Part shown: positions 33,410 to 46,408 of the stretch, one piece after another
Numbering within the stretch: the stretch's first letter is position 1
How the letters are laid out: each line of letters starts with the position of its first letter
Source: Oculatellaceae cyanobacterium bins.114
GTDB lineage: Bacteria > Cyanobacteriota > Cyanobacteriia > Elainellales > Elainellaceae
DNA: 64,000 nucleotides
Reading direction: 5' to 3'
Assembly: GCA_033764315.1 (NCBI GenBank)
Contig: JANRJA010000193.1
Coordinates: 49,119 to 113,118 of the forward strand
Program-made: the position numbers and the translations under genes
Notes under the pieces: model-generated
The model's database searches: none
What the model saw: only the letters and a program-made list of their open reading frames with translations
Told to the model about the DNA's origin: nothing

Positions 33410-34420
33410 TTGGTAAAGTTTCAACACGAACTCCTTCAACACCAAATCACCTTTAGTCTTGGTGAATCCCCTGCCTCACAAGTTCTTAGCCCAAACGGTA
33501 AATGGCTTGTCACAGGTAGTCTTAGGGGCGGGATGATTAAAATTTGGGATGTCCAAACTGGACACATGGAGCGTTCTTGGATCGCCATACCTCTCAGCCC
33601 ATACCCTTACATCAACGAAACGTCTCTCGAATATGGAATTACTGCTTTAGCAATCAGCCCTGACGGAAAAACACTCGTAACTGGTGGTAAAGCGTTAAAA
33701 ACATGGGAGTTTGAGACTGGGAAACAGATTCGGGTGTTTAAAGGATTCGGTAGCGGAGTGTCTTACATCACCATCAGTGCTAACGGAGAAATTTTGCTGA
33801 CTGATGGTAGTGCAGGTTCCTTAGCAGGGGCAATGAACATCTGGGATTTGCGCAGCGGGAAAAAAATCCGTCGAACTCTATCGGATGGAGGCTGGGTCAT
33901 TAGTCCAGATAGTACAGCAATTATTGGTTTTAGGATGGGTGAAAATGAAGAGCCTCCTAACCTTGTTAAAGTTTGGGACTTGATCACAGGTGAAAAACTG
34001 CGTGTTCTAGAGAATAGCGATGCAATTACACCAACACACTTCACATTTAGCCCAGATGGAAGATTAGTCGCAGGTGCGGGTGTTGACGGTATCAAGATTT
34101 GGAACTTTGAAACAGGTGAACAAGTTCAAAGAATCACCAAACACAAGAACGTTAGATTTCATGAGCATCTGGATCATGTGATGAGATGCGTCTTTAGCCC
34201 AGATGGAAAGGCTTTGTTAAGCAGTGGAGCTGACGGTTCAATTCAAATCTGGACTATAGAGACAAGTCAAAATATTGGAACTTTGCGGGCAGAGAACAGG
34301 ATTGGTTGGTTCGCTACAAGTGATGATGGTCAAGTTATTGTTGGAATAAGTGTAATCGATCAACATAACCGAGTTGTTGATGACCGAGTTGTTGAGGTAT
34401 GGAAAATACCATCTCAGTAA
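33410..34420 (+). CDS. WD40-repeat protein
   Basis: Repeated SPDG..L...IKIW(D/N) units. Confidence 0.88.
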   Translation: MVKFQHELLQHQITFSLGESPASQVLSPNGKWLVTGSLRGGMIKIWDVQTGHMERSWIAIPLSPYPYINETSLEYGITALAISPDGKTLVTGGKALKTWEFETGKQIRVFKGFGSGVSYITISANGEILLTDGSAGSLAGAMNIWDLRSGKKIRRTLSDGGWVISPDSTAIIGFRMGENEEPPNLVKVWDLITGEKLRVLENSDAITPTHFTFSPDGRLVAGAGVDGIKIWNFETGEQVQRITKHKNVRFHEHLDHVMRCVFSPDGKALLSSGADGSIQIWTIETSQNIGTLRAENRIGWFATSDDGQVIVGISVIDQHNRVVDDRVVEVWKIPSQ

Positions 34421-34607: not shown

Positions 34608-35798
34608 GTGAGTCAGGGAAAAGTCAATGTATTGTTATTAGCCGCGTGTCAGGCTCTGGCAATGACGGGCAATATTGTGCTGTTTACGACAGCGGCAATT
34701 GTCGGAAATATTTTAACAGAGGATAAAACTCTGGCAACCCTACCGTTGGCGATTCAGCAAGCCGCAACGATGGTGGCAACCATTCCTGCCTCGCTGATGA
34801 TGAGACAGGTAGGACGACAAGCTGGATTTATGGTGGGAGTCCTGATCGGACTCGTTGGGGTGAGTTTAGGAGCTTACGCCATTATCACAGGACAATTTAG
34901 CCTGTTTTGTCTAGCCACGCTGCTGTTTGGGGTGTTTAACGGGTTTGCGACGTTTTATCGGTTTGCCGCGGCGGATGTTGCCCCAGAAGGTTTTCGCAGT
35001 CAGGCGATCGCCTTTGTTGTGGCGGGTGGCATTATCGCCGCTCTAGCAGGCCCAAGTCTCGCGACTTGGTCAAAAGATTGGCTGGGGCAAGAGTTTGCAG
35101 GGGGATTTGTGACGATCGCCCTGATCCAAATTATTTCGCTAGCACTGTTAGCCGCTGTAAACATTCCCACTGCCTTAAGTGAGCAAGAACGCAAAACCGA
35201 GGGACGACCTCTGGGAGCGATCGTGCGTCAACCCGTGTTTATCGTAGCGGTGTTGGGTAGCATGGTCGGCTATGGTGTCATGGCTTTAGTGATGACAGCC
35301 ACACCTCTGGCAATGGTAGGGTTTTCCCACGATTTTGCGGATGCCGCAACCGTAATTCAATGGCACGTTTTGGGTATGTTTGTGCCCTCTTTATTTACGG
35401 GTTATTTGATTGCCCGATTTGGCGTGCTCAACATCATCCTCAGTGGCATTTTGCTCAACGGCTTCTGCTTTGTCGTCAACCTCTCCGGCACCCACATGCT
35501 GCACTTTGGGGGAGGGTTGCTGTTATTGGGCATTGGTTGGAACTTTATGTATGTGGGGAGCACAACCTTGTTAACCGAAGCATACACCCCTGGTGAAAAA
35601 GCCAAAACCCAAGCTGTCCATGACTTTTTGATGTTTGCCTTTGTTGCCTTTGCAACCTTTTTGTCAGGAGGCTTGCTCAACCATTGGAGTTGGGCAGGGG
35701 TCAATTATGTCGGTGCCTTGATGATGCTGATGGTGCTCAGTTCCACGGTGTGGCTGCGGTGGCAGCGATCGCGCTCAGTCGTCAAGACCCTGGTGTAA
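34608..35798 (+). CDS. MFS transporter
   Basis: About 12 hydrophobic segments; GRQAGF, YRFAAAD, IQWHVLGMF. Confidence 0.9.
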   Translation: MSQGKVNVLLLAACQALAMTGNIVLFTTAAIVGNILTEDKTLATLPLAIQQAATMVATIPASLMMRQVGRQAGFMVGVLIGLVGVSLGAYAIITGQFSLFCLATLLFGVFNGFATFYRFAAADVAPEGFRSQAIAFVVAGGIIAALAGPSLATWSKDWLGQEFAGGFVTIALIQIISLALLAAVNIPTALSEQERKTEGRPLGAIVRQPVFIVAVLGSMVGYGVMALVMTATPLAMVGFSHDFADAATVIQWHVLGMFVPSLFTGYLIARFGVLNIILSGILLNGFCFVVNLSGTHMLHFGGGLLLLGIGWNFMYVGSTTLLTEAYTPGEKAKTQAVHDFLMFAFVAFATFLSGGLLNHWSWAGVNYVGALMMLMVLSSTVWLRWQRSRSVVKTLV

Positions 35799-39790: not shown

Positions 39791-40846
39791 ATGACGAATC
39801 TACCGCCCTCTGACCCCCAACCCTCCCGCCGCGATCGCGATGAAGTGATTGCGGTTGTCGTTGCATTTGCTGCAATCGGCTCAATCTTAGCGTGGGGCTT
39901 GACCCGCACCAACTCGGGGTTTGACCTGTTCAACACGCCTCTGATCTCAGGAGCGTTTTCTGGCTCTCCCTCCCCCAGTCCTCAGGTTGACCCATTCACA
40001 GCCTCCCCAACCCCCACATCCTCCACAGTGCCGTTTGTCACCCCTGAAGATGCAGAAGAGGGAGAAGATAGCCCCCGCCTCTTAACCACTGATGAAGAGG
40101 GACGGTTAGTTGATCCAACAAATCCATCTGGGGCGATCGTGCCTGTGCCCATTCCCAATCGAGGCGATCGCACTGACAGGCGCACCTCAGACACCACCGA
40201 AGCCGGAGTTGCCCCAGCCACCGTTGGGTCTGATCCTTCAGCCACCCCTTCTCCTGATGCAACCGCATTTCCTGACGTGCCCTCTAATTACTGGGCTTAT
40301 CCCTTCATCGTAGATCTATCCAATCGGGGAATTATTGCCGGAACCGAAGATGGCACCTTCCAACCCGATCAGCCCATCACTCGTGCTGAATATGCAGCAT
40401 TGCTGCAAAAAATGAATAATCCAGAACGGTTGAATTCCATTACGTTTAACGATCTTCCAGCAAACTATTGGGCAACGCCAGCGATCGACAATGCCATCAA
40501 AACAGGATTCATGCGCGGCTATCCCGGCAATGTGTTTCAACCCAACCAGCCGATTCCCCGGTTTCAAGTGCTGATCTCGCTGGTGAATGGGTTTGGTCTA
40601 TCGAACCCTACCAACCCTGACCCAATTGTGGCAAGCTTTAGCGATCGCGCCGAAATTCCCGACTATGCCATTCAACCTATAGCAGCTGCAACTCAGTCAG
40701 GGTTAGTCGTCAACTATCCTGAACGGGATCAACTGCAACCCAACCGCCCCATTACCAGGGCTGAAGTAGCAGCGATCGTCTATCAAGCGTTGGTGGCAAC
40801 CGAGCAGGCAGAACCGATTGAGTCAGAGTATGTGGTGAGACCATAG
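39791..40846 (+). CDS. Membrane-anchored S-layer homology (3x SLH) protein
   Basis: FPDV...YWA, G..DGTFQP...TRAE repeats; N-terminal TM. Confidence 0.9.
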   Translation: MTNLPPSDPQPSRRDRDEVIAVVVAFAAIGSILAWGLTRTNSGFDLFNTPLISGAFSGSPSPSPQVDPFTASPTPTSSTVPFVTPEDAEEGEDSPRLLTTDEEGRLVDPTNPSGAIVPVPIPNRGDRTDRRTSDTTEAGVAPATVGSDPSATPSPDATAFPDVPSNYWAYPFIVDLSNRGIIAGTEDGTFQPDQPITRAEYAALLQKMNNPERLNSITFNDLPANYWATPAIDNAIKTGFMRGYPGNVFQPNQPIPRFQVLISLVNGFGLSNPTNPDPIVASFSDRAEIPDYAIQPIAAATQSGLVVNYPERDQLQPNRPITRAEVAAIVYQALVATEQAEPIESEYVVRP

Positions 40847-41106
40847 CCCAAAAGCTCGTCTATCCAACTCTGTAAACCAAACATCACCTGATCGAGACCC
40901 GATCGCGGCTCCTGTTGGCAACTATTCTCATGGTCTTGAGATCACCCCAGGAGCACGATACCGGTTTGTTGTTATGTCTTCAAACACGAGCAGAGAACAT
41001 CTTGTTATAGAGGCGATCGCAACTAAAATAATCAACACCGCAAATACCCCAAACACATCCACAAATGAGATAGTTACTCTGTAGATTTTGGGAGAAGCGA
41101 TCGCTG

Positions 41107-41144
41107 GTAGTCCTTACTCAAAAACATTACTTTTAGAGGACTAC
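41107..41144. repeat. Internally deleted copy of the 22982 element
   Basis: GTAGTCCT.ACTCAAAAACATTACTTTTAGAGGACTAC matches both ends of 22982-23060. Confidence 0.7.
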
Positions 41145-41470
41145 ACGATCGCTTTAATGGGTGTTTGAAAGCCAACGAACCCTCTTTAATTTAAAGGGGC
41201 ATGAAAGCCAATGAAGGGGCTTTAAGAGACAACAAAGGGACTCTGAGTGACTTGAATCACACTCTAAGTGGCAATGAATATACTTTGATTTGCAACCACC
41301 AGATGTTTTATATCATCTCTGGTGCGATCGCCCTCGTGTTTGTTAAATAGAGTGCGATCGAATAATGCAGGAATGAAGAAAGATTTTGCCCATCCATCGC
41401 GATCGGCATATTATGCGGAAAGATTCTGCCTCAGATCCGAATTGAGAGTGTTATGCAGAATGTTTTTATA

Positions 41471-41563
41471 TATAGCAGTCCTAAATCATTTGTGGAATTA
41501 GCAGGTTGTGAGCGGCGCACCCCACCGGGGTGCGCCTCTCACAACTCATTTGGGATTGCTATA
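41471..41563. mobile_element. 93-bp TATAGC-ended MITE with internal hairpin
   Basis: TIR TATAGCAGTCCTAAAT / ATTTGGGATTGCTATA; second, inverted copy at 63919. Confidence 0.85.
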
Positions 41564-41653
41564 TCAGGCGTCATACAGTAGATAGGCAGAAGCTTTCCGT
41601 CTAACAATAGTTAAGTTATGGCGAGATCAAGCCCCTCTACTAGATAACCTACA

Positions 41654-42223
41654 ATGTTTGAGGGAAATCAGCCTTCGCTTAAAAAGAAGACGGGTATGAC
41701 AAGTGAGTCTTTTGAAGAAATGCTTACGGGAGGGCATCCAAACTCTCTGGGTAGAACACTTGAGGTGGTTGATATCGTGTTAGCTAATTCCACAAGACTA
41801 TCGGATTTATATAATTGTTATTTCAGTGCCGATGAAATTGTTCGACTTCGCACCTCTAATGCCATCAAGAGAATATCTTTAGAAAATCCTGAATGGCTTA
41901 TTCCATATATTGATAAACTGATTTCCGAAATATCAAATATTCATCAGCCTTCAGCACAGTGGACTTTAGCAAATTTATTTCAGACTCTTTCAGGCTTTAT
42001 GTCAGAGTCGCAAAGAAACAATTCAAAGAGGATTCTGCAAAAAAATCTTGAAACTTATACAGATTGGATTGTCTTAAACAATACAATGGACACTCTAAGT
42101 AAATGGGCGGAAAAGGACTCAACTTTGAAAGAGTGGTTATTGCCGCATCTGGAAAGATTAGCTCACGATCCCAGGAAATCAGTTTCAGGAAGAGCTAAGA
42201 AAATCAAGGCAAAGCTGATGTGA
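41654..42223 (+). CDS. Hypothetical HEAT/ARM-like helical protein, putative gene cassette (start 41654 or 41696)
   Basis: AT-rich, no HIP1; GGHPNSLG, WIVLN.TM.TL, D.RKSV..RA; followed by attC-like site. Confidence 0.7.
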   Translation: MFEGNQPSLKKKTGMTSESFEEMLTGGHPNSLGRTLEVVDIVLANSTRLSDLYNCYFSADEIVRLRTSNAIKRISLENPEWLIPYIDKLISEISNIHQPSAQWTLANLFQTLSGFMSESQRNNSKRILQKNLETYTDWIVLNNTMDTLSKWAEKDSTLKEWLLPHLERLAHDPRKSVSGRAKKIKAKLM

Positions 42224-42263
42224 GACTAAATCAGGGACTTTTGATGAAATCTTATTGTAATCT

Positions 42264-42351
42264 GCATAACAACCCCAATGCACATTGACCGCCGTAAGAT
42301 TATTTGTGAGGGTTTGAGGTTATTCGCAGTAAATGATGAGCATGATTATAC
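42264..42351 (+). other. Degenerate attC-like recombination site
   Basis: R'' GCATAAC 41 nt after stop; inner arms ATTGACCGC/GCAGTAAAT; R' decayed to ATTATAC; 88 bp. Confidence 0.5.
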
Positions 42352-42418
42352 AGCTTTGGCTATTAGTAGGACGTAAGCTAAAGTTCCTTTCAAATGTTTT
42401 GCTCTAGGCTGATATGCA

Positions 42419-42934
42419 ATGGTCGATGATGAGGTTTTTACAGTGCTGCAATTGAGTGAGGAGATAAATCAGAAATTAGAGGTAACAGCACCTCTAATAG
42501 TTTTTTTTGGAATGCTTACAAAAGAACAAATAGCAGTTCTGCCAGTACTAGAGGAGAGGCTTTATGACTTTCCAGAGGGAGACTGGATCACAAGTAATGC
42601 TCTTGAGGTTCTAGTGCATGCTTACAATGCCCGCTTAAATTCAATCTCAATCCGATTCACGACGCTCCAACACATGCAAGATGAGTTAGGCAACAAGAGC
42701 ATCAAAGATTTAGTCGATGAAAATTTAGTTGATCTTATTGAGCAGCTTGTGTCCATAACTCACAAAATTACGGAAGGGCCTTTCGAGATTATCGACAATG
42801 CAGATATTGTGAGAACTATTGAGTGGAAGAGCCTTCGTCAACTTTCCTCTGCTGTCCAACGGAAGTTAGAAATTCAGTTGACGGTCAATACAGAGATTGT
42901 GAAAAACTGTGTAGAACAATGGCTTCATCCTTAG
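42419..42934 (+). CDS. Hypothetical protein, putative gene cassette
   Basis: 171-aa AT-rich ORF between two attC-like sites. Confidence 0.65.
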   Translation: MVDDEVFTVLQLSEEINQKLEVTAPLIVFFGMLTKEQIAVLPVLEERLYDFPEGDWITSNALEVLVHAYNARLNSISIRFTTLQHMQDELGNKSIKDLVDENLVDLIEQLVSITHKITEGPFEIIDNADIVRTIEWKSLRQLSSAVQRKLEIQLTVNTEIVKNCVEQWLHP

Positions 42935-42945
42935 CAATTAATGCT

Positions 42946-43031
42946 GTATAACAATTCGGCTGGAGTGGATTGGTTATATTCTTAATGCAGACTTCAAGGT
43001 TGCTTACAACCGCTCAGCCGAAATGTTAGCT
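42946..43031 (+). other. attC-like integron recombination site
   Basis: GTATAAC-AATTC-GGCTG[G]AGTGG[A]TTG...CAACCGCTCAGCC-GAAAT-GTTAGCT; two unpaired bases in the left arm; 86 bp; 12 nt after stop. Confidence 0.78.
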
Positions 43032-43068
43032 TAGGAATATTGCTTGCTGTTCCCTGATGCAATTGCTC

Positions 43069-43097
43069 TTGCAGTCTTGGTATAACAAAGGTATAAC
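43069..43097 (+). promoter_or_regulatory. sigma70-like promoter/operator of the TA module
   Basis: TTGCAG-17bp-TATAAC overlapped by direct repeat GGTATAAC-AAA-GGTATAAC. Confidence 0.65.
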
Positions 43098-43128
43098 TTG
43101 AAGGATAGAACTTGCCTCCAAAATCATT

Positions 43129-43365
43129 ATGAAAACTGCAATTTCTCTTCCAGACTCGGTTTTTGATGAGGCAGAAGCACTCGCTCAACAACTAGGCTTG
43201 TCACGCAGTGAGCTTTATACAAAAGCGTTAAAAGCTTATTTGAAAAAGTACAACCGTAACCAAATTCTGCACAAGCTGAATCAAGTTTATTCTAAAGAGT
43301 CCTCTGAGCTAGATCCAGTCATGGTAAAGATGCAGTTTATGTCTCTACCTCATGAGGATTGGTAA
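43129..43365 (+). CDS. RHH antitoxin (ChpI/MazE-like)
   Basis: MKTAISLPD.VF..AE.LA..LG.SRSELY; stop overlaps toxin ATG (TAATG). Confidence 0.88.
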   Translation: MKTAISLPDSVFDEAEALAQQLGLSRSELYTKALKAYLKKYNRNQILHKLNQVYSKESSELDPVMVKMQFMSLPHEDW

Positions 43366-43472
43366 TGTATCGGGGAGCAATTTAGCGGGCAGATCTGCCC
43401 ATCCGGTAGGTTCAAAACTAGGGTATCGTCATCCTGTCTTGGTCATTCAAGATGATGTTTTTACTCAAAGCC
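43365..43472 (+). pseudogene. PemK/MazF toxin remnant
   Basis: Reconstructs to MYRGAI*RADLP-PVGSKLGYRHPVLVIQDDVFTQS (in-frame stop plus frameshift), cut by IS630. Confidence 0.82.
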
Positions 43473-43473
43473 A

Positions 43474-44598
43474 TAAGTAGGTGGGTGGGATTAATTGTAA
43501 GATAGAGCGTTAGCTAAATTCGCCTATTATGCCTGCTCCTTTACGCATTCTTTTGACCGCTGAAGAAGACCGTACTTTAACAGAACTGCGACTGGCTCAG
43601 AACCTTCCCCAGCGCACGCGTGACCGCGCCCACATGTTGCGACTGAACGCTCAGGGATGGAATGTGCCAGCGATTGCGGAGGTGTTCGAGTGTCATCCTC
43701 ATACGGTCAGAGCGACACTGCGACGGTGGGAAGAAAAGGGTTTAGGTGGACTATGGGAAGCTCCAGGACGGGGTGCAAAACCAAAGTGGCAAGCCTCAGA
43801 CTTGGATTATCTGACGGAGTGTTTAGAGCACGAAACTCGAACCTACAACAGTCTGCAATTAGCCAAAAAGCTGAAACAAGAGCGGTTAGTCGATTTGAGT
43901 AGTGACCGACTCCGCCGACTCCTTAAAAAAAACCTACCGCTGGAAACGGACTCGACATAGTCATCGTCGCAAACAGGACCCGGTGCAAAAGGCACGCAAG
44001 CAGGCAGACTTAGACACCTTAGAGCTAGCCGCACAGGAAGGGCAGATTGAACTCAAGTATCTCGATGAAGCAGGATTCTGCCTCTGGAGTCCAGTCAGTT
44101 ACAGCTATAGTCGAGTGGGAGTGCAGAAACGGATGGAACAAACCCTCAATCGCTATGGCAACCGGATTAGCATTTTGGGTGTGTGGCAACCGGGAGAACG
44201 GTTCGAGTATGCCTTGGCTCAAGGCGGATTCAAGAGCAAAAGCTACATCAAGGTGATGGATTGGATGGCAGACAAAGCCGCTCAAACCTTGGCAGAAACA
44301 GGGCGTATCACGGTAGTGGTGCAGGATAATGGCTCTCTGCATACCAGTCTGTTGGTGCAGCAACAGTGGTCACGGTGGCAGGAGCAAGGATTATTCATTT
44401 TCTTTTTGCCGCCCTACTGTTCGCAGATGAATCCGATTGAAACCCAGTGGCATCAACTAAAAAGTCATGAGATCGCAGGACAGATGTTTGATAACGAGTA
44501 CGATTTAGCAATTGCTGTCATGAATGGAATGGAAGCTCGTAGCCAAGCAGGTAGTTATGCACTGGAGCGTTTTATATTTAATTACACCTAGCTACTTA
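43474..44598 (+). mobile_element. IS630-family insertion sequence
   Basis: Imperfect TIRs TAAGTAGGTGGGTGGGATTAATT / (rc) TAAGTAGCTAGGTGTAATTAAAT with TA at both ends. Confidence 0.92.
43529..44591 (+). CDS. IS630 transposase, split in two frames at A8 (43925-43932)
   Basis: HTH ORF 43529-43960; DDE ORF to 44591 with LDEAGF, QDNGSLH, MNPIE. Confidence 0.9.
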
Positions 44599-44621
44599 CC
44601 CGTTTAATTTTGTTTAAATGA

Positions 44622-45029
44622 TTACGCTTGACTCGCTTTATAGGCTGCCCAGCCTCCCAAATGAGAGATGTCAACCCAGTTATATTTCTCGACTAACTCT
44701 TTGGGATATAACATTGCGATCGCCGTTGTGTCGTCTTCCAAAAGCACCTCACTGGGATACATATTGGGCGGTTCCGTAGACACCAAATAGTCATACTGCT
44801 CAGCTGAGAGTTCATATAACTCACCGGGAATGGAGATGCCGCCTTCATCCACTGCATAAATTGCGGGATGCCAGCCATCAGCCGCCGCATGTAAACGATA
44901 TAGCGGTTGGGTTTTTGCGGCTCGAATGAACGTCGCCGACTGGAGATTTTGATGGTCGGGCTGTCCCTGCAATGCAGACCCGCAGATAAATACTCGTGTG
45001 GTTGCCTCTGTTGATTGGCTCACAGTCAC
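44622..45029 (-). CDS. Allophanate-hydrolase C-terminal-like / gamma-glutamylcyclotransferase-fold protein
   Basis: FICGSAL.G, T.P.YRL, I.GELYE, DISHLGGWAAY. Confidence 0.8.
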   Translation of the reverse strand: MTVSQSTEATTRVFICGSALQGQPDHQNLQSATFIRAAKTQPLYRLHAAADGWHPAIYAVDEGGISIPGELYELSAEQYDYLVSTEPPNMYPSEVLLEDDTTAIAMLYPKELVEKYNWVDISHLGGWAAYKASQA

Positions 45030-45043
45030 TCCTCCATTAACAC

Positions 45044-45133
45044 AATTTTTCGCAAAACCGAATTTTTCGCAAAACCGTATCTTCGCAAACGGTTTTTACC
45101 ATTGCAGTACTATAGTTTGTATACAGCATACAA
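45044..45133. promoter_or_regulatory. Divergent promoter with 17-bp direct repeats and a palindrome
   Basis: AATTTTTCGCAAAACCG x2 plus a degenerate third; TTGTAT-N5-ATACAA at 45117-45133. Confidence 0.55.
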
Positions 45134-45157
45134 TATCTTACGGTTTCCATAAAGCAA

Positions 45158-46408
45158 ATGACTACGGCAGTACTTCCAAAACTCAGTGTGAATGGCGATC
45201 GCCTTAACGACAGCATCAATCGTTTAGCTGAGATTGGCAAGCAGCCCTCTGGCAGTATTTGCCGCCTTGCCTTTACCCCCGAAGATTTGCAGGCTCGCTA
45301 TTTTGTGCAGCAGTGGATGGTGGAGGCAGGCATGACCGTCCGTGTTGATGCCGCTGGCAACCTGATTGGCACCTATGCCGGAACTGAGGAGATAGCAGCA
45401 TTAGCAACGGGGTCTCACATTGATACGGTGCCCTCTGGGGGGCGGTTTGATGGCGTTTTGGGGGTGCTGGCTGGCATTGAGGTTGTCCGAACGCTGAAAG
45501 AGAACAATCTGCGACTCAAGCATCCGATTCAAGTGATTATTTTCACTGATGAAGAAAAAACCATGATTGGTTGTCAGGCGATCGCTGGAACAGCCCTACT
45601 GCAAACTCCAAACCAATATCAACCTGCGGTTGGCAACTCTATTCAAGCTTGTTTAAAAACGTTGGGAGGAAATTGGGACGCTTTAGCCAGTGCTCAGCGA
45701 TCGCGCTCAGAGATGGCAGCGTTTGTTGAATTGCATGTAGAACAAGGGGCAGTGCTAGAGCGATTGGGCACTGACATTGGGATTGTGCAGGGGGTCGTGG
45801 GGATGCACCGTAAAGCCATTACCATTCTTGGACAAGCCAACCATGCCGGAACAACACCGATGGATATGCGCCAGGATGCCTTGATCGCAGCAGCAAAAAT
45901 TGTCTTGGCTGTGCAAGAGATTGCCCGTCAGATGCCCAGTCAACCTGTTGCGACTGTGGGGTATTTAAACGTTTCCCCTAATGCCGTTAACATCGTGCCG
46001 GGACAAGTGGATTTGTCAGTGGATATGCGTGATTTATCCCACGAGTGTCTGATCGAGATGATGGCGCAATTGCAACACCAAATGGCGGCGATCGCGGTTG
46101 AAACCAATACTGCGATTCAAGTCACGCCCCTATTAGAAGTGGAACCTACCCTAGCCACACCCAAGATACAAACGGCGATCGAATCGGTCTGTCAGACCCT
46201 CGATTTAAGCTACTGCCATTTGCCCAGTCGGGCTGGACATGACGCAATGGAACTAGGACGCATTACCGATATGGGTATGATTTTTGTGCCCAGTCAATCA
46301 GGAGTGAGCCATTCTGAGGCAGAATATACCTCACCCGAACAATGCACCCAAGGCGCAAATGTCCTGCTGCATACCTTGCTAATGCTCGATCGGTTATATG
46401 AATGTTAG
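45158..46408 (+). CDS. M20 Zn-dependent allantoate / N-carbamoyl-amino-acid amidohydrolase
   Basis: GSHIDTV, DG.LGV, DEE, ELHVEQG, NHAGTTPM, AGHDA, SHS.AE. Confidence 0.92.
   Translation: MTTAVLPKLSVNGDRLNDSINRLAEIGKQPSGSICRLAFTPEDLQARYFVQQWMVEAGMTVRVDAAGNLIGTYAGTEEIAALATGSHIDTVPSGGRFDGVLGVLAGIEVVRTLKENNLRLKHPIQVIIFTDEEKTMIGCQAIAGTALLQTPNQYQPAVGNSIQACLKTLGGNWDALASAQRSRSEMAAFVELHVEQGAVLERLGTDIGIVQGVVGMHRKAITILGQANHAGTTPMDMRQDALIAAAKIVLAVQEIARQMPSQPVATVGYLNVSPNAVNIVPGQVDLSVDMRDLSHECLIEMMAQLQHQMAAIAVETNTAIQVTPLLEVEPTLATPKIQTAIESVCQTLDLSYCHLPSRAGHDAMELGRITDMGMIFVPSQSGVSHSEAEYTSPEQCTQGANVLLHTLLMLDRLYEC

What the first reader, a model, noticed from the sequence alone, without database searches (positions are those of the whole stretch)
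41400..43472. Candidate integron cassette array (CALIN) in a cyanobacterium
Seen: three co-oriented, AT-rich units with no HIP1 octamer (two unknown ORFs, then a TA pair), separated by 86-88 bp imperfect palindromes that begin just after stop codons. The 42946-43031 site has attC anatomy: R'' GTATAAC and R' GTTAGCT, short unpaired spacers, and L arms that pair only if one G and one A are looped out. The 42264-42351 site looks like a decayed version. Established: attC sites have conserved AAC/GTT cores and extrahelical bases, and self-promoted TA cassettes are common in sedentary integrons. Inference: an integrase-less array, or the remnant of one, served by an IntI elsewhere. Cassette ORFs of unknown function are candidates for defence or stress genes.
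Basis: partly seen in the sequence, partly recalled or inferred. Interest (0 to 1): 0.85.

Follow-up and report, generated by a model that had tools for sequence, protein, structure and literature searches.

The report
Decayed integron cassette cluster in cyanobacterium
This stretch is a small, partly decayed cluster of integron gene cassettes in a cyanobacterial chromosome, of a kind already described, and the matching integrase gene lies elsewhere in the same genome.

Summary

- **Integrase:** the genome has an intact integron integrase on another contig (G000:C16:150-1127; TIGR02249 482 bits, cut-off 265). An adjoining contig (C183) carries five co-oriented 86-87-nt attC sites.
- **attC sites:** covariance models built only from attC sites outside the window find two matches in the 64-kb window. 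Site 42946-43031 (+) scores 58.9 bits (E 3e-13). Site 42264-42351 (+) scores 28.6 bits (E 5e-5). Noise stays at or below 10.8 bits.
- **State of the sites:** the first is structurally intact. The second has decayed, and its GTT core now reads ATT.
- **Cassette 1:** a 175-aa HEAT-like protein. It starts exactly at a GTT core (41615) and sits between intact attCs in other cyanobacteria.
- **Cassette 2:** a helical protein of unknown function.
- **Cassette 3:** an intact RHH antitoxin plus a dead MazF-like toxin, cut by an IS630 element (43474-44598).
- **Left flank:** 41469-41563 is a dispersed MITE-like repeat, not an attC.

Integrons, CALINs and a cyanobacterial attC model are already in print. 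This is a new member of a known kind, of modest interest.

The parts
41469..41563 (.). MITE-like ~95-nt palindromic dispersed repeat on the left flank. It is not an attC and not part of a cassette.
   Evidence: Fold z -8.75 and -7.43. About 40 near-full-length copies at 84-93% identity in the genome, from 45 matches with 40 of 203 candidates scored.
41578..41590 (+). 13-mer GTAGATAGGCAGA, shared only with the three attI-like regions of this genome. Possible attI remnant.
   Evidence: GTAGATAGRCAGA occurs 4 times in 6.64 Mb on both strands: C183:204, C155:33663, C44:187 and here, 37 nt upstream of the cassette boundary. Local alignment shuffles were as good in 3-7 of 2000. An nhmmer attI profile gave no hit here at E<=10.
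41615..41621 (+). GTTATGG, an R'-type core. Left boundary of cassette 1, with the crossover expected between G41615 and T41616.
   Evidence: DNA homology to the same cassette in L040 and L047 begins exactly at this GTT. In those loci a full attC lies upstream; in the window it does not.
41616..42345 (+). Cassette 1. ORF1 runs 41696-42223 (175 aa from the second ATG) and encodes a HEAT/armadillo-like solenoid of unknown function.
   Evidence: 1754 relatives, typically 175 aa. AF2 pLDDT 94.9. Only generic ARM/HEAT fold matches, best E 1.7e-3. No Pfam family for the window protein at E<=0.01; weak Cnd1 matches (best E 5.4e-4) in 18 of 24 members and HEAT in 5 of 24.
42264..42351 (+). attC A, decayed. 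The left half is conserved and the right half mutated. The R' core reads ATTATAC (GTT -> ATT).
   Evidence: R1 21.9 bits, E 7.5e-4. R2 28.6 bits, E 5e-5 in the window and 5.2e-3 genome-wide. Aligned with the intact orthologous attCs. Fold not better than shuffles.
42346..43025 (+). Cassette 2. ORF2 runs 42419-42934 (171 aa; most relatives start at residue 9) and encodes a helical protein of unknown function.
   Evidence: 44 relatives. AF2 pLDDT 86.8. No PDB fold match, best E 0.18. No Pfam, NCBIfam or PADLOC family of note.
42946..43031 (+). attC B, structurally intact. R'' is GTATAAC and R' is GTTAGCT. Bulged G and A lie on the top strand, separated by a 6-bp stem.
   Evidence: R1 54.7 bits, E 6.5e-14. 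R2 58.9 bits, E 3.1e-13 in the window and 3.2e-11 genome-wide. The reverse strand scores only 13-15 bits.
43026..43473 (+). Cassette 3, truncated. Intact RHH antitoxin at 43129-43365. MazF/PemK-like toxin pseudogene at 43366-43473, with a stop at codon 7 and a frameshift, cut by the IS after about residue 40. Its own attC is missing.
   Evidence: RHH_3 E 1.5e-4. PemK_toxin E 0.018, below cut-off. Compared with the intact cassette in L111: attC, 78-aa antitoxin, 114-aa toxin, attC. Sequence read.
43474..44598 (+). IS630-family insertion sequence (HTH and DDE_3 ORFs at 43529-43960 and 43902-44591), bounded by TA. It forms the right end of the cluster.
   Evidence: Pfam HTH_23 and DDE_3. Its ends match contig ends elsewhere in the assembly. 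Contigs of four unrelated public runs break at 43473/43474 and 44598/44599.

Best explanation
The locus is a small cluster of integron gene cassettes without its own integrase (a CALIN), and it is partly frozen by decay.

How cassettes move (inferred from the known integron mechanism). Each cassette was mobilised as an ORF plus an attC site. The bottom strand of the attC folds into an imperfect hairpin with an R box, an L box and two bulged bases. The integron integrase recognises that hairpin and cuts in the conserved AAC/GTT triplet.

What the sequence shows.
- Cassette 1 still begins at a GTT core.
- attC A has lost its GTT, so cassettes 1 and 2 are now fused.
- attC B is intact and belongs to the same attC family as the array next to the genome's own intI on contig C16.
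- Cassette 3 is a toxin-antitoxin cassette with a dead toxin, truncated by IS630.

Inferred. IntI made from C16 could still recombine attC B in trans with other attC or attI sites. I judge the left junction to be a remnant of a second attI platform whose intI was lost, at about 0.5 odds. The alternative is a random secondary site.
For: Integrase.
- An intact IntI is present: TIGR02249 482 bits against a cut-off of 265.
- It aligns end to end with VchIntIA (2a3v), E 2.7e-94, including the IntI-specific insertion.
- The start of C16 overlaps the start of C183 by 141 nt at 100% identity. C183 carries five co-oriented attCs separated by single ORFs or a TA pair.

attC sites in the window.
- Model R1 was built from those 5 sites only. 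It scores site B at 54.7 bits and site A at 21.9 bits, with noise at or below 10.6 bits.
- Model R2 was built from 31 genome sites outside the window. These are 31 of the 37 rows, after dropping 4 reverse-strand rows, 1 duplicate and 1 truncated row. It scores site B at 58.9 bits and site A at 28.6 bits.

attC family structure.
- 88.5% of cells pair, against 72.7% in shuffles (0 of 500 as high).
- 100 double-change cells, against 36.4 in shuffles.
- Slid controls pair at 27-48%.
- The bulges sit at model positions 17 and 24 with a 6-bp stem between them, on the same arm as AAC on the ORF-sense strand. This matches the geometry described in PMC5027507 (passages read).

Genome-wide distribution. 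There are 50 hits on 28 contigs, and all 12 contigs with more than one hit have them co-oriented.

The same cassettes elsewhere.
- The ORF1 cassette lies next to attCs in 5 of 14 cyanobacterial loci. In L040 it lies between two attCs of 62 bits each.
- The TA cassette is bracketed by attCs in 4 of 9 loci.
Against: - Only one attC is intact. Site A folds no better than shuffles and has lost its GTT, so a strict two-site CALIN call rests on a decayed site.
- No attC lies upstream of cassette 1, and the attC of cassette 3 is missing.
- IntegronFinder's general attC model was not run.
- ORF1 relatives have no adjacent R2 hit in the other 9 of 14 cyanobacterial loci. In L082 the only hits are weak (18.2 and 25.6 bits) and lie 109 nt or more from the ORF. 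None of the 33 non-cyanobacterial loci has an adjacent hit.
- ORF2 relatives have an attC-like site in 0 of 6 genome loci, and in 2 of 8 metagenome loci that are probably one sequence.
- The bottom strand of site B folds less stably than the top strand (-13.3 against -16.3 kcal/mol). This is opposite to the average trend reported in PMC5027507.
- The L-box bulge is C on the bottom strand, where that paper says 'usually a G'.
- The attI-remnant idea rests on one 13-mer and a short local alignment, and a profile search missed it.
- No recombination or expression data exist.
Confidence: 0.88

Rival explanations
1. The cassettes were inserted here by IntI at a non-att secondary genome site (attG-type, G|WT), not at an attI. 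On this view the cluster never had its own integrase.
For: - The left junction is a bare G|TT with no attC upstream.
- No intI remnant lies in window 36-48 kb (tblastn best E 0.14), and TIGR02249 gives no hit on this contig.
- An attI profile finds nothing here.
- This route and its GWT consensus are described in preprint 10.1101/2022.09.11.507474 (passages read).
Against: - The 13-mer GTAGATAGRCAGA occurs only 4 times in the genome. Three copies lie in attI-like regions. The fourth lies 37 nt upstream of this junction in the same orientation, against 32 nt in the C183 attI region.
- No empty site is available for comparison. In the closest relative the two flanks lie on different contigs.
Confidence: 0.3
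2. The cluster is a piece of the main array, or of another array, that IS630-mediated rearrangement moved here.
For: - IS630 forms the right end, and the sequence beyond it does not continue the toxin gene.
- Copies of the same IS abut an attI-like region on C44 and lie 600 nt from an attC on C223.
- The flanks are not syntenic in the closest relative.
- Cury et al. 2016 list rearrangement as one origin of CALINs (PMC4889954, passages read).
Against: - The left end is a precise GTT cassette boundary, not an IS end.
- Only one IS copy is present at the locus.
Confidence: 0.15
3. The palindromes are not integron sites. They would be ordinary terminators or a REP/MITE-type repeat that happens to resemble attC.
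For: - The genome is rich in palindromic repeats.
- Site A has no significant fold.
- Rfam has no matching family.
Against: - The family lies next to intI in a co-oriented array.
- It keeps AAC/GTT cores and bulges at canonical positions, with strong covariation.
- Cassette boundaries fall exactly at GTT.
- The same ORF-plus-site unit recurs in other hosts' arrays.
Confidence: 0.02

Closest known systems
[quoted passage not shown] 2016, PMC4889954)
   Same: - At least two co-oriented attC sites within 4 kb, with no intI nearby.
- Small size, cassettes of unknown function, and an IS beside it.
- A complete integron elsewhere in the same genome.
   Different: - One of the two attCs has decayed (GTT -> ATT), so an automatic caller might report a single site.
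- The third cassette is truncated.
- A possible attI remnant lies at the left end.
Sedentary chromosomal integrons with homogeneous attC sites (for example Vibrio VCRs). A Cyanobacteria-specific attC covariance model exists (Ghaly et al. 2021, PMC8352920).
   Same: - attC sites of this genome are much alike, loop included.
- The family is found in 30 of 31 relatives searched.
- TA cassettes are present.
   Different: - The sites are scattered over 28 contigs rather than gathered in one long array.
- The bulge nearest the L box is C on the bottom strand, where PMC5027507 says 'usually a G'.
- I could not see Ghaly's supplementary tables or model.
attC x attG insertions and SALINs (preprint 10.1101/2022.09.11.507474)
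   Same: A cassette boundary at G|TT, next to sequence that is not an attC.
   Different: - There are three cassettes here, not one.
- The upstream sequence shares a rare 13-mer with this genome's attI-like regions.

Membership tests
integron attC site (site B, 42946-43031) | Inverse core RYYYAAC at the 5' end and core GTTRRRY at the 3' end, with conserved AAC/GTT | tested here: met
   GTATAAC and GTTAGCT, each with one departure from the degenerate consensus. AAC and GTT are intact.
integron attC site (site B, 42946-43031) | Imperfect hairpin with R and L boxes and extrahelical bases: on the AAC arm of the top strand, at about positions 16 and 23/24, with a 6-bp stem between them | tested here: met
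   Model alignment puts bulges at positions 17 and 24 with 6 bp between them. Fold z is -3.98 and -3.24. The criteria come from PMC5027507. The first bulge is C, not the usual G, on the bottom strand.
integron attC site (site B, 42946-43031) | Unpaired central spacer between the R and L boxes | tested here: inconclusive
   AATTC and GAAAT can pair at 4 of 5 positions, and the minimum-energy fold pairs them.
integron attC site (site B, 42946-43031) | Homology in sequence and structure to attC sites of an array next to an intI | tested here: met
   Model R1, built from the five C183 sites only, gives 54.7 bits and E 6.5e-14. The reverse strand gives 13.1 bits.
integron attC site (site B, 42946-43031) | Hit with IntegronFinder's general attC model (attC_4) | not testable with these tools
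   The model is not held here. Rfam 15 has no match in 40500-45000.
integron attC site (site B, 42946-43031) | Recombined by IntI as a folded bottom strand | not testable with these tools
   This needs a conjugation or excision assay.
integron attC site (site A, 42264-42351) | Conserved GTT core and a stable hairpin | tested here: not met
   The R' position reads ATTATAC. Eight model pairs are non-standard. Fold z is 0.28 and -0.57. It is homologous to intact attCs (28.6 bits; alignment), so it is a decayed member.
CALIN | At least two attC sites no more than 4 kb apart, and no integron integrase nearby | tested here: met
   The two hits lie 595 nt apart. There is no TIGR02249 hit on the contig. 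tblastn of IntI against 36-48 kb gives a best E of 0.14. The result depends on counting the decayed site A.
integron integrase (G000:C16:150-1127) | Tyrosine recombinase above the IntI-specific model cut-off, with the IntI-specific insertion | tested here: met
   TIGR02249 gives 481.9 bits against a cut-off of 265. The protein aligns with 2a3v over residues 13-324, including the insertion region. The frame is open over 325 aa.
type II toxin-antitoxin cassette (RHH antitoxin with MazF/PemK toxin) | Intact antitoxin and intact toxin ORFs | tested here: not met
   The antitoxin is intact (RHH_3, 22.1 bits against a cut-off of 21.6). The toxin has a stop, a frameshift and an IS truncation. PemK_toxin scores 15.7 bits, below the cut-off of 23.1.

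The most novel reading that the evidence does not exclude
In this cyanobacterial lineage the integron is not one array. It is a chromosome-wide, dispersed pool of cassettes with several attI-like platforms, of which this locus would be one degraded example. IS630 fragments the pool. It uses an attC type whose L-box extrahelical base on the recombined strand is C rather than G, which implies a co-adapted IntI pocket. The 175-aa HEAT-like cassette protein is found at 49-66% identity in some ten other phyla. On this reading it would be a new, widely exchanged accessory function.
Probability: 0.25. Interest if true: 0.55.

Novelty: new member of a known kind. Interest (0 to 1): 0.3.

Why it matters
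- It confirms by independent tests that a reader working from raw sequence can recognise attC anatomy.
- It documents a cyanobacterial genome with one intact integron, at least one degenerate platform, and about 50 attC sites scattered over 28 contigs.
- It gives a worked example of how cassettes become fixed: loss of the attC core, death of the toxin gene, and IS insertion.
- Cyanobacterial integrons are known but little studied. The conserved C bulge and the cross-phylum HEAT-like cassette protein are concrete starting points for experiments.
- It does not change what is known about how integrons work.

Tried and rejected
- **Rfam:** the scan of 40500-45000 gave only a chance snoRNA match.
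- **BLAST of the two sites:** no similar copies in the genome. The family is too diverged for BLAST and needed a covariance model.
- **attI profile:** an nhmmer profile from 3 attI-like regions gave no hit at the left junction at E<=10. The by-eye match 'TAGTTAAG' to C44 was dropped, because in C44 those letters belong to an IS630 end.
- **intI remnant:** a search of 36-48 kb found nothing.
- **Empty site:** the flanks lie on different contigs in the closest relative.
- **Toxin fragment:** tblastn against plasmids gave no match.
- **ORF2 relatives:** the first metagenome scan, with the single sequence, found nothing. The alignment-based scan gave 8 distant loci.
- **Defence families:** PADLOC, NCBIfam and Pfam gave nothing meaningful for ORF1 or ORF2.
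- **Language-model atlas:** only HEAT-like leads for ORF1, and no usable feature hit for ORF2.
- **PDB profile search for ORF1:** only 2db0_A, at E 0.005.
- **Promoter scan:** 2 sites against 4.7 expected, and none ahead of the antitoxin.
- **Sequencing runs:** no RNA holder was listed, and no run held more than 9% of the sampled words. The four runs laid covered the IS and part of the antitoxin only, with no cover of cassettes 1-2, so nothing can be said about excision.
- **Earlier findings:** the look-up returned nothing.
- **Script machine:** it was lost, so exact GC figures and HIP1 gap statistics were not recomputed. The values given are read.
Full report
**1. The observation**

The window comes from a cyanobacterium. 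The HIP1 octamer occurs 99 times, against 0.76 expected. The largest gap between HIP1 sites runs from 41331 to 44716. GC falls to 0.35-0.42 across 41.75-43.5 kb, against about 0.50-0.58 in the flanks.

Site B (42946-43031) folds better than every one of 200 shuffles on both strands (z -3.98 and -3.24). Site A (42264-42351) does not (z 0.28 and -0.57).

A third, much stronger hairpin at 41469-41563 lies inside the stated interval. It is a dispersed ~95-nt MITE-like repeat with about 40 near-full-length copies in the genome. It has nothing to do with attC.

**2. The genome has an integron**

A search of the window's own assembly with the integron-integrase model TIGR02249 gave one match far above the cut-off: G000:C16:183-1124, 482 bits against 265, with no stops.

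- The ORF (C16:150-1127, 325 aa) aligns end to end with the crystallised VchIntIA (2a3v, E 2.7e-94). The alignment includes the stretch that is specific to integron integrases.
- The first 141 nt of C16 are identical, in reverse, to the start of contig C183.
- Read outward from intI, C183 carries five co-oriented 86-87-nt sites with RYYYAAC...GTTRRRY ends. Single ORFs or a TA pair separate them.
- Caveat: the same 141-170 nt also open contig C112. There they run into a transposase after about 8 codons of intI. A second, disrupted copy or allele therefore exists, and the link between C183 and C16 is by overlap only.

**3. Covariance-model test, independent of the window**

- **Model R1.** I aligned the five C183 sites (A1) and wrote the structure: a 7-bp R box, 5-nt spacers, and a 13-bp stem with two bulges. 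90.8% of cells pair, against 18-49% when partners are slid. With filters off, R1 finds two significant matches in the 64-kb window. Site B scores 54.7 bits (E 6.5e-14) and site A 21.9 bits (E 7.5e-4). The next hit is the reverse strand of site B (13.1 bits), and everything else is at or below 10.6 bits.
- **Model R2.** In the whole genome R1 finds 42 matches at E<=1. I built R2 from 31 sites outside the window. These are 31 of the 37 rows, after dropping 4 reverse-strand rows, 1 duplicate and 1 truncated row. R2 scores site B at 58.9 bits (E 3.1e-13) and site A at 28.6 bits (E 5e-5).
- **Covariation.** On the 31-site alignment the structure covaries strongly. 88.5% of cells pair, against 72.7% in shuffles (0 of 500 as high). 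There are 100 double-change cells, against 36.4. Slid controls pair at 27-48%.
- **Genome-wide.** R2 finds 50 sites (E<=0.1) on 28 contigs. In all 12 contigs with more than one site the sites share a strand. By a crude ORF rule, 27 of 50 sites have a same-strand ORF of at least 40 aa ending within 60 nt upstream. Those ORFs are unrelated to each other apart from one pair.

**4. attC anatomy**

On the ORF-sense strand the bulges are a near-invariant G (model position 17) and an invariant A (position 24). [quoted passage not shown]

This is the geometry given for top strands in Nivina et al. 2016 (PMC5027507, passages read): extrahelical bases at position 16 and at 23/24, with a 6-bp stem between. 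On the recombined bottom strand these bases are T, as in known sites, and C, where that paper says 'usually a G'.

Site B has both bulges and both cores. Its spacers can pair at 4 of 5 positions, so the 'unpaired spacer' is not evident.

**5. The cassettes**

- **ORF1.** It belongs to a family of 1754 proteins, typically 175 aa, so the start is the second ATG at 41696. Relatives were fetched at 47 loci in Cyanobacteria, Chloroflexota, Proteobacteria, Spirochaetota, Bacteroidota, Actinomycetota and others.
  - R2 finds attCs directly next to the ORF1 relative in 5 of 14 cyanobacterial loci.
  - In L040 (94% identity) the gene sits between two 62-bit attCs inside a five-site array.
  - In L046 and L048 an attC starts 44 nt after the stop (40 nt in the window).
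  - In 7 other cyanobacterial loci none appears even with filters off. One locus has only weak hits.
  - None of the 33 non-cyanobacterial loci has an adjacent hit, though the model is lineage-specific.
- **Cassette 1 boundary and site A.** A DNA alignment shows that homology between the window and the L040 and L047 cassettes begins exactly at the GTT core (window 41615-41621, GTTATGG). Site A is the orthologue of their intact attCs. Its left half is conserved. Its right half carries many changes, mostly transitions, and its core GTT now reads ATT.
- **ORF1 fold.** It is a confident HEAT/armadillo-type solenoid (pLDDT 94.9). Only generic matches were found, best E 1.7e-3.
- **ORF2.** It has 44 relatives and a helical model (pLDDT 86.8) with no PDB match. 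Its relatives are followed by an attC-like site in 0 of 6 genome loci and 2 of 8 metagenome loci. Those two both score 25.8 bits and are probably one sequence.
- **Cassette 3.**
  - The 78-aa RHH antitoxin is intact.
  - Its relatives occur in 26 of 151 genomes of the class.
  - They are bracketed by attCs in 4 of 9 loci.
  - In L111 the full unit is attC, antitoxin, 114-aa MazF-like toxin, attC.
  - The window's toxin has a stop at codon 7 and a frameshift, and it ends at the IS after about 40 codons.

**6. The ends of the cluster**

- **Right end.** An IS630-family element occupies 43474-44598. Contig ends in this assembly and contig breaks in four unrelated public runs fix its limits. The sequence beyond it does not continue the toxin gene. 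Copies of this IS also abut an attI-like region on C44 and lie near an attC on C223.
- **Left end.**
  - There is no attC upstream of cassette 1 and no intI remnant.
  - The 13-mer GTAGATAGRCAGA occurs only four times in the genome. Three copies are in the attI-like regions of C183, C155 and C44.
  - The fourth copy lies 37 nt upstream of the cassette boundary in the same orientation.
  - Short local alignments beat all but 3-7 of 2000 shuffles.
  - An attI profile search missed the region.
  - I therefore hold 'attI remnant' at about even odds. The alternative is insertion at a secondary site of the kind described in preprint 10.1101/2022.09.11.507474.
- **No empty site.** In the closest relative the two flanks lie on different contigs.

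**7. Context among relatives**

- IntI above the cut-off is present in 17 of 31 genomes searched, the window's own included.
- The attC family (E<=1e-5) is found in 30 of 31, with 2-94 matches per genome. Only 143 candidates were scored per genome.
- Nine genomes with attC matches had no IntI match at E<=1e-20.

**8. Comparison with what is known**

- Cury et al. 2016 define CALINs, list their possible origins, and state that Cyanobacteria encode integrons (PMC4889954, passages).
- Ghaly et al. 2021 built a Cyanobacteria-specific attC covariance model (PMC8352920, passages). I could not see its supplements.
- The IntegronFinder 2 preprint does not mention cyanobacteria in its main text.

The locus is therefore a new member of a known kind.

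**9. Verdict**

What remains open is the origin of the left junction, whether attC B is still used, and what ORF1 and ORF2 do. I searched for the C bulge only through the passages cited, so I do not claim that it is unreported.

Noticed in passing
window 41469-41563: A ~95-nt palindromic MITE-like repeat (fold -30 kcal/mol, z -8.75) with about 40 near-full-length copies at 84-93% identity across the genome. It is often found at contig ends.
   Followed up: partly
G000:C155:33299-43407 (L009, L021, L026, L032): A degenerate second integron platform. It has an intI N-terminal fragment (model positions 1-40, one TAA) on the minus strand, an attI-like region at 33494-33744 (86-93% identical to C183), and four co-oriented attCs at 35276, 41557, 42402 and 43323.
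   Followed up: partly
G000:C112:1-800 (L007): The first ~170 nt equal the start of C16, including about 8 codons of intI. The sequence then diverges into a transposase ORF (372-764). This is a second intI copy or allele disrupted by an IS, and it makes the C183-C16 link ambiguous.
   Followed up: partly
G000:C44:1-345 and C223:1-838: The same IS630 element as in the window ends at the start of both contigs. In C44 it is inserted at a TA inside the attI-like region. In C223 it lies 600 nt from a 94.6-bit attC.
   Followed up: partly
alignment A3 (31 attC sites of G000), columns 19 and 27: The two bulged bases are near-invariant G and invariant A on the top strand, so C and T on the recombined strand. 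The published description says the first is 'usually a G'.
   Followed up: partly
relatives G006, G008, G010, G016, G018, G020, G023, G026, G027: Nine of 31 genomes searched carry 2-63 matches to the attC model but have no IntI match at E<=1e-20.
   Followed up: no
window 42475-42498: A 9-10-bp hairpin followed by T8, terminator-like, lies inside the conserved N-terminal coding part of ORF2 (residues ~19-30, LEVTAPLIVFFG).
   Followed up: no
loci L052-L085: The 175-aa HEAT-like ORF1 family is kept at 49-66% identity in some ten phyla outside Cyanobacteria, among them Chloroflexota, Pseudomonadota, Spirochaetota, Deinococcota, Bacteroidota, Actinomycetota, Myxococcota and Saccharibacteria. That is unusually high for a small protein of unknown function.
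   Followed up: partly
window 39791-41400 and 44600-46408 against G001: The two flanks of the cluster lie on different contigs (C23 and C12) in the same-genus relative. The cluster therefore sits at a synteny break, or at an assembly join through the IS.
   Followed up: partly
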